The notes under the pieces: model-generated
What the model was told of the DNA's origin: nothing
Database searches by the model: none
The model's input: the letters and a program-made list of their open reading frames with translations, nothing else
NCBI GenBank assembly: GCA_031283965.1
Contig: JAITAU010000064.1
Location: 1-39,378 of the forward strand
Reading direction: 5' to 3'
DNA: 39,378 nucleotides
DNA from: Holosporaceae bacterium
Lineage (GTDB): Bacteria; Pseudomonadota; Alphaproteobacteria; UBA3830
Shown here: piece by piece, positions 17,456 to 19,384 of the stretch
Position numbering within the stretch: the stretch's first letter is position 1
How the letters are laid out: each line of letters starts with the position of its first letter
Position numbers and translations under genes: made by a program

Positions 17456-19384
17456 TCATGCTGTTTCTCCGGAAGCATCTGCGCTGCTTTTCGAGGCATC
17501 CATTTGGGTTTCGAGAACATCTGCGCTGCTTTTCGAGGCATCCATTTGGGTTTCGGAAGCATCTGCGCTGCTTTCAACGTCAGCCTGGTCTTCTAGAAGC
17601 TCAGCCAAGTCATTTTTTAGCGTAAGGACGGCAGCTTCAAGCTTCTCAATGGCTGTTTTATCTGAGGTTGAGGCCTTCAGAGAGTTGATGACTGGTTCAA
17701 TTTTTTTCTCGATCTTTGCCAAGAGTTGTGCAACTTCATGCTTGTGATCGCTCTTCAAATGCTCAATCTGCTTCTTCTGAAGCTCGCTGATGCTGGAATT
17801 GGTCTCTTGCTCCTGTTGCAGTTTGGAACATAGTTTCTTCAGGTTATCTAGCTCTTTCTTCTGACTGGAATAATGCTTCTTGTATTCCTTGAGTTCTTTT
17901 CCCTCCAGTTCCAGTTCCTTACGCATCTGTTCTGATGTTGATAGATTCGAGTGAGCCTTCTCATTTGCTTTCACTGCATTATCCCTTTGGTTTTGCAGCT
18001 CCTTTAGCCGTTTCTCCATCAGCTTTTCGTCCTTTTTGTACTCCTGAGCTTTTTTCTGCAGCTCCTCTTCATGGAGTTTTTTGACTTCTTCCTTCTCGAG
18101 TTCCTTAGCCGTCAACTGCTCAGCATGGAGTCTTTCCTTTTCCTCCAGAGCTTTCTTATGGGCTTCCACTTCTTCTAGGGCCTTTTGGCGCTCCTGCTTT
18201 ACCCTTTCGGCTTCGGTCTTCGCGCTTTCATGCTGCTGCTTGGTATCATCAAGCTCGGCGCTCTTTTGATTCAAAATTTCTTTGTGGGCGTCAAGCTCCT
18301 TGTTAGCTTTTTCCAGTAGAGCGTTCTTCTCGAAGATGGAAATTTCATGCTCCTGAGCCTTTTTCAACAGCTCCTGGCGCAGTTTCTCATGCTCCTGAGC
18401 CTTTTCCAACAGCTTCTCTTCATGCTGTTTTTTGAGGTTCTCCTTCTCGAGTTCCTTAGCCGTCAGCTGTTCAGCATTGGCTTTTTCCTTTTCCTCCAGA
18501 GCTTTTTTATGATCTTGCACGGTCTGATTCATTGTCATTATTTTATGAGCATGCTTCCTCTTAATTTGTTCAATCTCTTTATTTTTCTCGAGTTCCTTAG
18601 CCGTCAACTGCTCAGCATGGGCTTTTTCCTTTTCCTCCAGAGCTTTCTTGTGATTTTCCAGCTCCTTTTGAGCATTTTCATGCTCCTGCTTTATCCTTTC
18701 GGCTTCGGTCTTCGCGCTTTCATGCTGCCGCTTGGTATCATCAAGTTCGGCGCTCTTTTGATTCAAAATTTCTTTGTGGGCGTCAAGCTCCTTGTTAGCT
18801 TTTTCCAGTAGAGCGTCCTTCTCGAAGATGGAAATTTCATGCTCCTGAGCCTTTTTCAACAGATCCTGGCGCAGTTTCTCATGCTCCTGAGCTTTTTTCT
18901 GCAGCTCCTGTTTCGTCTTTTTAAGCGCTGCTTCCTTAGCGGAGATATTGAGGTCGTACTCACTCTTCATGTCAGACAGGATTCTCTTGGAATTCTCATG
19001 CTCCCGTTTGACATCCTGCAACTCAGTCTCTTTCTTCAGCAGGGACAAGTTATGTTGCTCGGCTTTCTTCTGCATTTCCTCAAGGTCAATTTCCTTCTGT
19101 TCCAGAGCTTTTTTATGAACATCCAGCGCAGCCTTGTGGAGCACAACGGTTTTCTCCAGCTCTTTCGTCTTCTCGAGTCCAGTGTCGATGGATTGTTTCG
19201 CTCCTCCCAGATACTCTACGATTTCGGCGATCTCAGATTTTACCTCCTGAGACACTTCCTGCCTTTGAGGAACCTCTTGAACGATTTCTTGCTCGACATC
19301 TGAATTCTGCTGTTCGCAGAAACTCGCATCCGGCCACATCAGCGTCGCTAAAGCAACTGAAACACAAATCACATTTTTCATCAT
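17456..19384 (-). CDS. Secreted repeat-containing coiled-coil protein (hypothetical)
   Basis: Has a signal-peptide-like N-terminus (MMKNVICVSVALATLMWPDASFC), then ~600 aa of E/K/Q/L-rich heptad-like sequence with internal duplications. The C-terminus carries 14-aa repeats (SSAD..ETQMDASK). The maximal ORF reaches GTG 19417. I prefer ATG 19384, which has a GGAG 9 nt upstream. Confidence 0.8.
   Translation of the reverse strand: MMKNVICVSVALATLMWPDASFCEQQNSDVEQEIVQEVPQRQEVSQEVKSEIAEIVEYLGGAKQSIDTGLEKTKELEKTVVLHKAALDVHKKALEQKEIDLEEMQKKAEQHNLSLLKKETELQDVKREHENSKRILSDMKSEYDLNISAKEAALKKTKQELQKKAQEHEKLRQDLLKKAQEHEISIFEKDALLEKANKELDAHKEILNQKSAELDDTKRQHESAKTEAERIKQEHENAQKELENHKKALEEKEKAHAEQLTAKELEKNKEIEQIKRKHAHKIMTMNQTVQDHKKALEEKEKANAEQLTAKELEKENLKKQHEEKLLEKAQEHEKLRQELLKKAQEHEISIFEKNALLEKANKELDAHKEILNQKSAELDDTKQQHESAKTEAERVKQERQKALEEVEAHKKALEEKERLHAEQLTAKELEKEEVKKLHEEELQKKAQEYKKDEKLMEKRLKELQNQRDNAVKANEKAHSNLSTSEQMRKELELEGKELKEYKKHYSSQKKELDNLKKLCSKLQQEQETNSSISELQKKQIEHLKSDHKHEVAQLLAKIEKKIEPVINSLKASTSDKTAIEKLEAAVLTLKNDLAELLEDQADVESSADASETQMDASKSSADVLETQMDASKSSADASGETA
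17471..17582 (-). repeat. In-frame 42-nt tandem repeat (~2.6 copies) at the 3' end of the coiled-coil gene
   Basis: The motif catctgcgctgcttttcgaggcatccatttgggtttc recurs with CATCTG at 17476, 17518 and 17560 (period 42). On the coding strand it encodes SSADASETQMDASK / SSADVLETQMDASK / SSADASGETA. Confidence 0.9.
18191..18892 (-). repeat. Near-identical ~210-nt direct duplication inside the coiled-coil gene (copies 18191-18400 and 18683-18892, offset 492 nt)
   Basis: Aligning the two copies by eye gives 5 mismatches in ~210 nt. The offset of 492 is a multiple of 3, so the copies are in frame (KAQEHEKLRQ.LLKKAQEHEISIFEK.ALLEKANKELDAHKEILNQKSAELDDTK.QHESAKTEAER). A shorter motif, ctcgagttccttagccgtca, recurs at 18095, 18446 and 18587. 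Confidence 0.9.

What the first reader, a model, noticed from the sequence alone, without database searches (positions are those of the whole stretch)
17456..19384. Signal-peptide-bearing ~640-aa coiled-coil protein built from recently duplicated modules: candidate surface or effector protein
After a plausible Sec signal (MMKNVICVSVALATLMWPDASFC) the protein is almost entirely E/K/Q/L heptad-like helix. It has three layers of repetition:
- A ~210-nt block is duplicated at an in-frame offset of 492 nt, with only 5 mismatches by my count (18191-18400 versus 18683-18892).
- The LTAKELEK-encoding motif ctcgagttccttagccgtca occurs three times.
- The C-terminus carries 14-aa acidic Ser-rich repeats.

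G+C is visibly lower than in neighbouring housekeeping genes: one sampled 60-nt line gave 26/60. Proteins with tandem repeats and coiled coils are a recurrent class of secreted effectors and adhesins in intracellular alphaproteobacteria. The near-identity of the modules suggests ongoing recombination and size variation.
Basis: partly seen in the sequence, partly recalled or inferred. Interest (0 to 1): 0.65.

Follow-up and report, generated by a model that had tools for sequence, protein, structure and literature searches.

The report
Orphan exported helical repeat protein
An uncultured termite-gut alphaproteobacterium encodes a 642-residue, all-helical, very charged protein with an export signal and recently duplicated internal modules; it has no detectable relative anywhere, so it is a real but functionally unassigned envelope or surface protein, not a demonstrated effector.

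Summary
The ORF is real: minus strand, 17456-19384, 642 aa, with GGAG 9 nt upstream of the ATG. All three repeat layers are confirmed. A 210-nt core is duplicated at a +492-nt offset with 5 mismatches. An exact 20-mer occurs three times. A 42-nt C-terminal repeat has 2.5 copies. The N-terminus looks like a Sec signal whichever start codon is used; SignalP was not available.

AlphaFold2 predicts five long helices. A heptad seam is statistically detectable only in the N- and C-terminal thirds. The duplicated centre is a hydrophobic-poor, 45-55% charged helix.

The low G+C comes from amino-acid composition. Synonymous usage for K, E and Q matches the neighbouring genes, so the gene looks native.

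No homologue was found in any search: 5.8 billion clusters (whole protein, N-terminal and C-terminal parts), 1.84 billion representatives with exhaustive phmmer, Pfam, NCBIfam, PHROGs, PDB by sequence and fold, and genome, metagenome, viral and plasmid DNA. No housekeeping coiled-coil family fits.

The host is an alphaproteobacterium seen in one termite-gut run. Its nearest GroEL (88%) is from a camel-rumen UBA3830 MAG, and synteny there is not conserved.

Best reading: a lineage-specific, Sec-exported fibrous envelope or surface protein whose length changes by module recombination. Effector or adhesin roles and strain size variation remain untested.

The parts
17456..19384 (-). CDS of the orphan protein: 642 aa including the signal peptide, stop codon included. 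The predicted mature protein is 619 aa, 71.6 kDa, pI 5.7.
   Evidence: the ORF extends to GTG 19417, but ATG 19384 has the RBS
19394..19397 (-). GGAG Shine-Dalgarno-like motif, 9 nt upstream of ATG 19384
   Evidence: read from the sequence
19316..19384 (-). Predicted Sec signal peptide, aa 1-23: MMKNVICVSVALATLMWPDASFC. Likely cleavage is SFC|EQ. The A-S-F-C motif is not a canonical lipobox.
   Evidence: hydropathy; comparison with the CpaC signal peptide; AF2 pLDDT is below 50 for residues 1-27; heuristic only, SignalP not run
18893..19264 (-). N-terminal helical segment, aa 41-164, with a detectable heptad seam
   Evidence: a/d occupancy z 2.7
18683..18892 (-). Module A, copy 1 (aa 165-234); contains the helix break ISIF
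18584..18652 (-). Module B, copy 1 (aa 245-267, HKKALEEKEKAHAEQLTAKELEK); contains the exact 20-mer at 18587-18606
18443..18511 (-). Module B, copy 2 (aa 292-314); contains the 20-mer at 18446-18465
18191..18400 (-). Module A, copy 2 (aa 329-398); 5 nt differences from copy 1 over 210 nt
18092..18160 (-). Module B, copy 3 (aa 409-431); contains the 20-mer at 18095-18114
17585..17935 (-). C-terminal helical segment, aa 484-600, with the strongest heptad pattern
   Evidence: z 5.2
17470..17574 (-). C-terminal acidic Ser-rich 14-aa repeat (SSADASETQMDASK), 2.5 copies; low-confidence tail in the AF2 model
   Evidence: (D7, D8)
19385..19529 (-). Upstream non-coding region. It holds a 21-nt direct repeat (19474-19514) and a 7-bp GC hairpin (19440-19418) that abuts the alternative GTG start.
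   Evidence: function not tested

Best explanation
The gene encodes a lineage-restricted protein that the Sec pathway exports out of the cytoplasm. After removal of a signal peptide of about 23 residues, the protein would form an elongated, all-alpha-helical, highly charged rod or bundle in the cell envelope, either periplasmic or released to or attached at the surface.

Shown:
- An intact ORF with an RBS.
- A Sec-like N-terminus, independent of the start codon chosen.
- Five predicted helices of about 60-160 residues.
- Helix breaks that recur at the same motif (ISIF) in both module copies.
- In-frame nested duplications.
- No relative in any database searched.
- Native codon usage.

Inferred:
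- The N- and C-terminal thirds, which carry heptad seams, mediate oligomerisation or bundling.
- The duplicated, hydrophobic-poor, 45-55% charged central modules act as a stiff spacer that sets the length of the rod.
- The acidic Ser-rich tail is disordered.
- Length changes by unequal recombination or gene conversion between the near-identical tracts: the 210-nt core at 97.6% identity and the exact 20-mer present three times.

The precise role (surface coat or fibril, periplasmic scaffold, or host-contact factor) is not determined.
For: - ORF, RBS and start codons.
- Signal-like N-terminus, with positive charge on the N side and an acidic flank on the C side, which places the bulk of the protein outside the cytoplasm.
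- AF2 predicts helices H41-181, H186-345, H350-477, H484-572 and H576-633 and no strands (mean pLDDT 69.7).
- The heptad test for the whole mature protein gives z 6.5. The signal sits in the flanking segments and is absent from the duplicated centre.
- The charge-pattern score for i/i+3 and i/i+4 opposite charges gives z 6.0.
- Repeats.
- The mosaic identity (97.6% in the core, much lower in the 10-aa linker that follows) fits gene conversion or recent duplication.
- Codon usage is native.
- No family or homologue was found.
- A precedent exists for Sec-signal-bearing, sequence-novel periplasmic proteins in an alphaproteobacterial symbiont that are later released to the host: Holospora PRP1 and the 89-kDa protein (PMC9866348).
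Against: - No signal-peptide predictor could be run. The -1 residue of the proposed cleavage site is Cys, which is uncommon.
- The AF2 model comes from a single sequence and has pTM 0.21, so helix packing and oligomeric state are unknown.
- Segment-wise i/i+4 charge pairing is only weakly above shuffles (z 0.9-1.9). The 'single alpha-helix spacer' idea is therefore not established.
- There is no outer-membrane targeting feature, so surface exposure has no known route.
- No expression data exist; no RNA run holds the locus.
- The module copy number rests on one assembly.
Confidence: 0.5

Rival explanations
1. It is a host-directed secreted effector or adhesin. The protein leaves the bacterium (by a type II system, vesicles or lysis) and acts on a protist or termite host cell. 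It would resemble the coiled-coil and tandem-repeat effectors of intracellular alphaproteobacteria, with diversifying module turnover.
For: - Orphan status and rapid internal turnover are typical of host-interface proteins.
- Four of the five core differences are non-synonymous.
- There is an acidic Ser-rich repeat tail.
- The nearest relatives are small-genome gut MAGs (UBA3830, average about 1 Mb, PMC9177762) and a termite Holosporales MAG.
- Holospora periplasmic proteins with signal peptides do reach the host.
Against: - A Sec signal is not how type I or type IV effectors are exported (own knowledge).
- No type II, type IV or type I secretion genes lie beside it. The nearby secretin belongs to a Tad pilus cluster.
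- Nothing in the window shows an intracellular lifestyle.
- A 4:1 ratio of non-synonymous to synonymous changes is what neutral change gives for K/E-rich codons, and n = 5.
- There is no eukaryote-like domain and no homologue.
Confidence: 0.2
2. It is a membrane-tethered periplasmic helical spacer. Either the N-terminal hydrophobic segment is not cleaved (a signal anchor, as in TolA), or Cys23 is lipidated (a very long Lpp-like lipoprotein). The rod would then span or structure the periplasm.
For: - A Cys lies exactly at the end of the hydrophobic/c-region (ASFC|EQQ).
- The gene beside groES in the nearest relative is a bona fide lipoprotein with E/K/P repeats (L002 3301-3621).
- Individual predicted helices of 128-160 residues would be about 19-24 nm long at 0.15 nm per residue, which is on the scale of a periplasm (own arithmetic).
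Against: - The hydrophobic core has only 13 residues, typical of cleaved signals and short for a transmembrane helix.
- Phe at -1 violates the lipobox rule [LVI][ASTVI][GAS]C (own knowledge of PROSITE PS51257).
- There is no TolA C-terminal domain and no OmpA or peptidoglycan-binding domain.
Confidence: 0.2
3. It is a cytoplasmic housekeeping coiled-coil protein (SMC-, division- or partition-like), or a non-functional decaying ORF whose signal-like N-terminus is fortuitous.
For: - There is a weak sub-threshold SMC coiled-coil match (E 4e-4, 18.2 bits).
- This genome tolerates large E/K-rich helical insertions elsewhere, such as about 390 aa inside sucB.
- There is no expression evidence.
Against: - The SMC score is 18 against a cut-off of 567, and it covers only the coiled-coil arm. 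No ATPase head or hinge is present.
- A 643-codon open frame in 50% G+C DNA is not expected by chance.
- All repeat offsets keep the frame.
- Codon usage is native.
- An RBS is present.
Confidence: 0.07

Closest known systems
Holospora obtusa periplasmic proteins (63-kDa PRP1 and the 89-kDa invasion-tip protein)
   Same: They are Sec-type signal-peptide proteins with 'novel' sequences in an alphaproteobacterial protist symbiont. They are stored in the periplasm, and then either secreted into the host macronucleus (PRP1) or partly exposed outside the invasion tip and left at the nuclear entry point (89-kDa protein) (PMC9866348; PMC11909080).
   Different: There is no sequence similarity; the exhaustive searches found nothing. 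PRP1 carries a D5_N DNA-binding domain and the 89-kDa protein has actin-binding motifs. The present protein has no domain at all and is purely helical and repetitive. The organism is not shown to be a Holospora relative: GroEL is 73% identical to a Holosporales MAG, against 68-73% for generic alphaproteobacteria.
Tandem-repeat and coiled-coil effectors of Anaplasmataceae (Ehrlichia TRP32/47/120, Anaplasma AAAP/MSP1a); from own knowledge
   Same: Lineage-restricted proteins with acidic, Ser-rich tandem repeats and repeat-number variation in obligate intracellular alphaproteobacteria.
   Different: Those proteins lack Sec signal peptides and use type I secretion, or are outer-membrane proteins. 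Here the acidic Ser-rich repeat is only 2.5 copies at the extreme C-terminus, a Sec signal is present, and there is no sequence similarity.
Periplasmic helical spacers: TolA domain II and Braun lipoprotein Lpp; from own knowledge
   Same: Extracytoplasmic, K/E/A-rich long alpha-helices that span the periplasm or set its width.
   Different: There is no TolA C-terminal domain, no 20-residue membrane anchor and no canonical lipobox. At 619 residues the protein is far longer than the periplasm is wide, unless the helices fold back.
ER/K single alpha-helix (SAH) domains (myosin VI/X, caldesmon); from own knowledge
   Same: The central modules have 45-55% charged residues and only 10-16% strong hydrophobics. 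They are predicted helical without a detectable heptad seam.
   Different: The i/i+4 opposite-charge pattern is only weakly enriched per segment (z 0.9-1.9). His, Gln and Ala are abundant. SAH domains are not established for exported bacterial proteins.
Modular in-frame repeat surface proteins that vary by recombination (streptococcal M proteins, Helicobacter CagY); from own knowledge
   Same: Fibrous or helical proteins with nested in-frame DNA repeats. These provide substrates for unequal recombination and length variation.
   Different: There is no LPXTG anchor or type IV secretion context, no homology, and variation between strains has not been observed here.
SMC coiled-coil arms (TIGR02168)
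   Same: This is the only profile with any score, and it aligns to the coiled-coil arm (aa 62-345 versus profile positions 677-963).
   Different: The score is 18.2 bits against a cut-off of 567. There are no ATPase heads and no hinge, and an export signal is present. The match is compositional.

Membership tests
Sec (SPase I) secreted proteins | A tripartite N-terminus: a positive n-region, a 7-15-residue hydrophobic h-region, and a polar c-region with small residues at -3 and -1 | tested here: inconclusive
   The N-terminus is MMK, then VICVSVALATLMW (13 residues, peak Kyte-Doolittle 2.66), then PDASFC|EQ. Ser at -3 and Cys at -1 are acceptable but not typical. The feature is retained for all candidate starts. 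No trained predictor was available.
Bacterial lipoproteins (SPase II) | Lipobox [LVI][ASTVI][GAS]-C at the end of the signal peptide | tested here: not met
   The sequence is A-S-F-C, and Phe at -1 is outside the rule (the rule is from own knowledge of PROSITE PS51257).
Canonical coiled coil | Heptad periodicity with hydrophobic residues at a/d positions over at least 4 heptads | tested here: inconclusive
   The pattern is met in aa 41-164 (z 2.7), 432-477 (z 2.1) and 484-600 (z 5.2). It cannot be told from shuffles in the duplicated modules at aa 165-431 (z 0.2-1.2). COILS, MARCOIL and DeepCoil were not available.
ER/K single alpha-helix domain | A long helix, very high E/K/R content, few hydrophobics, and enriched i to i+4 opposite-charge pairs | tested here: inconclusive
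   The composition is met for aa 200-267 and 364-431 (charged 0.47, hydrophobic 0.13-0.16). For the whole protein the i+3/i+4 score gives z 6.0. Per-segment i+4 enrichment is weak (z 0.9-1.9).
SMC / chromosome-partition proteins | N- and C-terminal ABC-type ATPase head halves plus a hinge domain flanking the coiled coil; score above the curated cut-off | tested here: not met
   TIGR02168 scores 18.2 bits against a cut-off of 567.35, over the arm region only. There are no Pfam SMC_N or hinge hits.
TolA | An N-terminal membrane anchor, helical domain II, and a C-terminal TolA domain III, within a tol-pal gene context | tested here: not met
   There is no Pfam or NCBIfam TolA hit. The neighbours are groES and an aromatic amino-acid permease, not tol-pal genes.
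Autotransporter and trimeric autotransporter adhesins (type V secretion) | A C-terminal beta-barrel translocator or anchor domain | tested here: not met
   There are no Pfam hits. AF2 predicts no beta strands anywhere, and the C-terminus is an acidic low-confidence tail.
Anaplasmataceae tandem-repeat protein effectors | Sequence relationship to TRPs; a type I secretion signal with no Sec signal; a dominant acidic Ser-rich tandem-repeat region | tested here: not met
   No homologue of any kind was found. A Sec-like signal is present. The acidic Ser-rich repeat covers only 35 of 642 residues. A type I secretion signal cannot be tested here.
Holospora periplasmic region proteins | Sequence relationship to PRP1 or the 89-kDa protein; accumulation in the periplasm of infectious forms | tested here: not met
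   No sequence relative was detected in 1.84 billion representatives. Localisation cannot be tested with these tools. This is an analogy only.

The most novel reading that the evidence does not exclude
The protein is a new class of exported bacterial 'ruler'. In this reading, hydrophobic-poor, ER/K-like single alpha-helical modules are duplicated in 164-residue steps, each equal to one predicted helix of about 24 nm. These steps set the length of a periplasmic or surface fibre in a gut-protist-associated alphaproteobacterium, possibly one that contacts the host. Exported SAH-type spacers that evolve by whole-helix duplication have not been described in bacteria, to my knowledge.
Probability: 0.12. 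Interest if true: 0.6.

Novelty: new member of a known kind. Interest (0 to 1): 0.3.

Why it matters
If the protein is exported and surface-exposed, it would be a candidate host- or environment-contact factor. The lineage is an uncultured gut alphaproteobacterial one (near GTDB order UBA3830 or Holosporales), for which no such factors are known. The locus would also be a clean example of protein length evolving by nested in-frame duplication. As it stands it is one of many orphan, low-complexity, helical ORFs in metagenome-assembled genomes. It has no relatives, no expression data and no culturable host, so its immediate value is modest. The corrective points carry over to similar first-pass calls: the low G+C is compositional, the heptad pattern is confined to the ends, and a Sec signal argues against the usual effector routes.

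Tried and rejected
**Homology searches, all empty**
- Whole protein against 5.8 billion clusters.
- Exhaustive phmmer against 1.84 billion representatives.
- The less biased C-terminal part, aa 432-642, and N-terminal part, aa 1-164.
- Pfam and PHROGs. NCBIfam gave only a sub-threshold SMC match.
- PDB by sequence and the AF2 model against PDB with Foldseek.
- Peptide-pattern plus tblastn scans of GTDB genomes, JGI metagenome contigs and IMG/VR.
- tblastn against plasmids.
- Exact-product look-ups for three start variants.

**Synteny through a GroEL anchor**
- 80 loci were fetched.
- The position upstream of groES is not conserved in the two nearest genomes.

**Strain comparison and expression**
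- Only one run (termite gut metagenome) holds the locus or its flanks.
- No RNA run holds it.
- Logan unitigs fragment in the repeats, so they neither confirm nor contradict the copy number.

**Ideas rejected**
- Horizontal acquisition inferred from low G+C, because codon usage matches the background.
- A phage or plasmid origin.
- SMC, TolA, autotransporter or lipoprotein membership (see the membership table).
- A CIRCE operator upstream of groES: none found.
- An Rfam RNA in the region: none found.
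Full report
**1. What is there**

The finding's interval lies in one long minus-strand ORF, 17456..19417, which is 653 aa when read from a GTG. Three in-frame ATG codons follow, at 19399, 19384 and 19381. The GTG sits directly against a 7-bp GC hairpin (19440-19418) and has no such motif. 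I therefore take 17456-19384 as the CDS, giving 642 aa. The two 154-aa ORFs on the plus strand at 18347-18811 and 18839-19303 are the mirror image of the repeat and are not genes.

**2. The repeats are real and nested**

- The repeat finder reports a 300-nt direct repeat at 93% identity with a spacing of 492 nt. It also reports a 129-nt family in three copies with spacings of 351 and 141 nt.
- My own offset scan shows the 492-nt similarity running over 339 nt at 90%. Within it is a 210-nt core: aa 165-234 at 18683-18892, against aa 329-398 at 18191-18400.
- The 10 residues after the core are almost unrelated between the two copies. The 23-aa B motif that follows (HKKALEEKEKAHAEQLTAKELEK) is again nearly identical and occurs three times, at aa 245-267, 292-314 and 409-431.
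- The architecture is therefore [lead-A1-link-B1]-[U-B2]-[lead-A2-link-B3], made of a 117-aa unit and a 47-aa unit: 117 + 47 = 164 aa = 492 nt.
- The C-terminus carries 2.5 copies of a 42-nt, 14-aa acidic Ser-rich unit at 17470-17574.
- All offsets are multiples of three.
- The pattern of a 97.6%-identical core next to a diverged linker fits two histories: a recent duplication with local divergence, or an older one homogenised by gene conversion. Five differences are too few to infer selection.

**3. Independent support for the assembly**

Only one public run, a termite gut metagenome, holds the locus, with 0.91 of the sampled words. It holds the flanking 10 kb with 0.99 of the words. Its unitigs match at 99% or better but break inside the repeats, and none spans both A copies. 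Depth in the A core is about 10.5, against 6-8 in unique flanks. That is compatible with two collapsed copies but is not proof. No joints indicating alternative module numbers were seen. Contigs drop rare variants, so this says little.

**4. Composition**

The CDS has G+C 0.456, against 0.502 for the window. Its GC3 is 0.54, against 0.60-0.75 in neighbouring genes. One third of the residues are E or K.

When the amino acid is held fixed, the fraction of G/C-ending codons matches 22 neighbouring genes. The values are K 0.53 versus 0.46, E 0.50 versus 0.52 and Q 0.65 versus 0.72, none of them significant. The dip in G+C is therefore a consequence of the protein's composition, and the gene looks native. 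By contrast, the glycosyltransferase-like ORF at 21189-22451 is genuinely atypical, with G+C 0.35 and K 0.16.

**5. Protein features**

*N-terminus.* The sequence is MMK, then VICVSVALATLMW (13 hydrophobic residues, peak hydropathy 2.66), then PDASFC, followed by an acidic run (EQQNSDVEQE). This is the classical n/h/c layout. It resembles the signal peptide of the CpaC secretin in the same window. Any of the four candidate starts preserves it. The best SPase I site is SFC|EQ. The A-S-F-C motif fails the lipobox rule. I could not run SignalP, so export is inferred and not shown.

*Fold.* AlphaFold2 from the single sequence (mean pLDDT 69.7, pTM 0.21) gives five long helices: 41-181, 186-345, 350-477, 484-572 and 576-633. 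It predicts no strands. Two of the breaks fall on the same ISIF motif in the two A copies. One 164-aa repeat step therefore corresponds to one helix of about 160 residues.

*Heptads.* Over the mature protein, occupancy of a/d positions by strong hydrophobics exceeds shuffles, with z 6.5. Segment by segment, the signal comes from aa 41-164 (z 2.7), 432-477 (z 2.1) and 484-600 (z 5.2). The duplicated centre cannot be told from shuffles, with z 0.2-1.2.

*The centre.* It has only 10-16% strong hydrophobics and 45-55% charged residues. Opposite-charge i/i+3 and i/i+4 pairing is enriched over the whole protein, with z 6.0. Per segment it is only weakly enriched, with z 0.9-1.9.

The fair description is a helical rod with coiled-coil-competent ends and a highly charged centre. 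That centre may be a single alpha-helix or a loosely packed coiled coil. The predicted mature protein is 619 aa, 71.6 kDa, with pI 5.7.

**6. Relatives: none**

- There are no Pfam or PHROGs hits.
- The only NCBIfam hit is the SMC coiled-coil arm, at 18.2 bits against a cut-off of 567.
- There are no hits with the whole protein, or with the less biased N- and C-terminal parts, in the 5.8-billion-cluster collection.
- Exhaustive phmmer over 1.84 billion representatives found nothing at E ≤ 0.001.
- PDB gave nothing by sequence or fold.
- GTDB genomes, JGI metagenomes, IMG/VR and plasmids gave nothing.
- Composition correction could hide very remote helical relatives. Any orthologue at roughly 30% identity or more should have been seen.

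**7. Organism and context**

The window starts with the 3' end of the 23S rRNA gene and a 5S rRNA gene. In order, its genes are:
- sucB;
- a Tad/Cpa pilus cluster at 3614-12426;
- an enoyl-CoA hydratase and a GT2 glycosyltransferase;
- groEL and groES;
- the target gene;
- an aromatic amino-acid permease;
- the low-GC glycosyltransferase-like ORF;
- proS and a SpoU-family methylase gene;
- rne, an amidase gene and a PBP1A gene;
- bamD, rpsA, rpoH and atpF/atpB.

This is a chromosomal housekeeping context and not an island.

The nearest GroEL among GTDB species representatives is 88% identical. It comes from 'Alphaproteobacteria bacterium RUI108'. Next is a termite 'Holosporales' MAG at 73%, followed by generic alphaproteobacteria at 68-73%. 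RUI108 is a camel-rumen MAG of GTDB order UBA3830. In that study the six alphaproteobacterial MAGs (orders Rs-D84 and UBA3830) averaged about 1 Mb (PMC9177762). A review notes an uncharacterised gut and termite clade within Paracaedibacteraceae (PMC11909080). I cannot place this organism there.

The position upstream of groES is not conserved. RUI108 has a small divergent lipoprotein with EEPKA repeats. The Holosporales MAG has an unrelated 432-aa signal-peptide protein. An intracellular lifestyle is plausible for the lineage, but this window does not demonstrate it.

**8. Interpretation**

There is no housekeeping coiled-coil match, and the signal peptide is robust to the choice of start. The most economical model is a lineage-specific, Sec-exported fibrous protein of the envelope. 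Its length is set by duplicated helical modules, and the near-identical tracts are substrates for unequal recombination.

The 'effector/adhesin' label goes beyond the evidence, for three reasons:
- Sec export leads to the periplasm.
- There is no beta-barrel, lipobox, passenger domain or adjacent dedicated secretion system.
- Type I and type IV substrates typically lack Sec signals (own knowledge).

The best functional precedent is the set of Holospora periplasmic proteins that carry signal peptides. [quoted passage not shown] That is an analogy and not membership.

My probabilities for the readings are:
- 0.5 for an exported envelope or surface rod;
- 0.2 for a host-directed effector or adhesin;
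- 0.2 for a membrane-tethered periplasmic spacer;
- 0.07 for a cytoplasmic or non-functional protein.

**9. Verdict**

This is a real, well-described sequence feature and a true orphan. In kind it is ordinary: an exported, low-complexity, helical repeat protein in an uncultured bacterium. Interest is 0.3. The most novel reading not excluded is an exported single-alpha-helix 'ruler' that grows by whole-helix duplication, with probability about 0.12.

Noticed in passing
window 744-2969 (+): The sucB/E2 succinyltransferase ORF is 741 aa. A lipoyl domain (about aa 1-120) and a catalytic domain (about aa 510-740) are separated by a roughly 390-aa E/K-rich helical-looking insert that includes DYERER-type repeats. 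This is far longer than usual E2 linkers. It suggests that this genome tolerates or generates charged helical expansions.
   Followed up: partly
window 21189-22451 (+): A 420-aa ORF with a Glyco_trans_1_2 domain has strikingly low G+C (0.35; GC3 0.35; AAG/(AAA+AAG) 0.16 against 0.46 in the background). It is probably a horizontally acquired glycosyltransferase. It sits two genes upstream of the target.
   Followed up: partly
window 17234-17324: A 16-nt tandem repeat (ATCTGCGGCGCTGGGG, 5.7 copies) lies between the target's stop codon and groES. It is found only here in the window. It sits inside a plus-strand 112-aa ORF (17038-17376) that has no family match. Logan unitigs of the source run do not cover 17304-17404.
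   Followed up: partly
window 19418-19514: The 145-nt region upstream of the target contains a 21-nt direct repeat (1.9 copies, 19474-19514; one copy includes a perfect TTGACA). It also contains a 7-bp GC hairpin, GGGCGAA-N9-TTCGCCC (19440-19418), without a T-run. These could be an operator, a promoter, or the terminator of the permease gene.
   Followed up: no
window 16883-17037: No CIRCE inverted repeat was found upstream of groES, even with 3 mismatches allowed. rpoH is present in the window (35355-36281), so the groESL operon is probably controlled by sigma-32 alone.
   Followed up: partly
window 3614-12426 (-): A complete-looking Tad/Flp pilus assembly cluster is present: prepilin peptidase, CpaB/RcpC, CpaC secretin, CpaD, CpaE, CpaF ATPase, TadB and TadC. 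The CpaB-like ORF is unusually long (465 aa, E+K 0.18).
   Followed up: no
L002 3301-3621 (-): In the nearest relative (camel-rumen MAG RUI108), the gene next to groES is a 106-aa lipoprotein (lipobox VVSC) made almost entirely of EEPKA repeats. It is another exported low-complexity charged protein at the same chromosomal position, but it is unrelated in sequence and has the opposite orientation.
   Followed up: no
window 23827-24366 (-): A 179-aa ORF has a signal-peptide-like N-terminus (MKMKKILMTAILLPVCVYC...) and no Pfam family. It is another small exported orphan near the target.
   Followed up: no
window 1-488 (+): The window begins with the 3' end of a 23S rRNA gene and a 5S rRNA gene. 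These could be used to place the organism phylogenetically if the rest of the operon is available.
   Followed up: no
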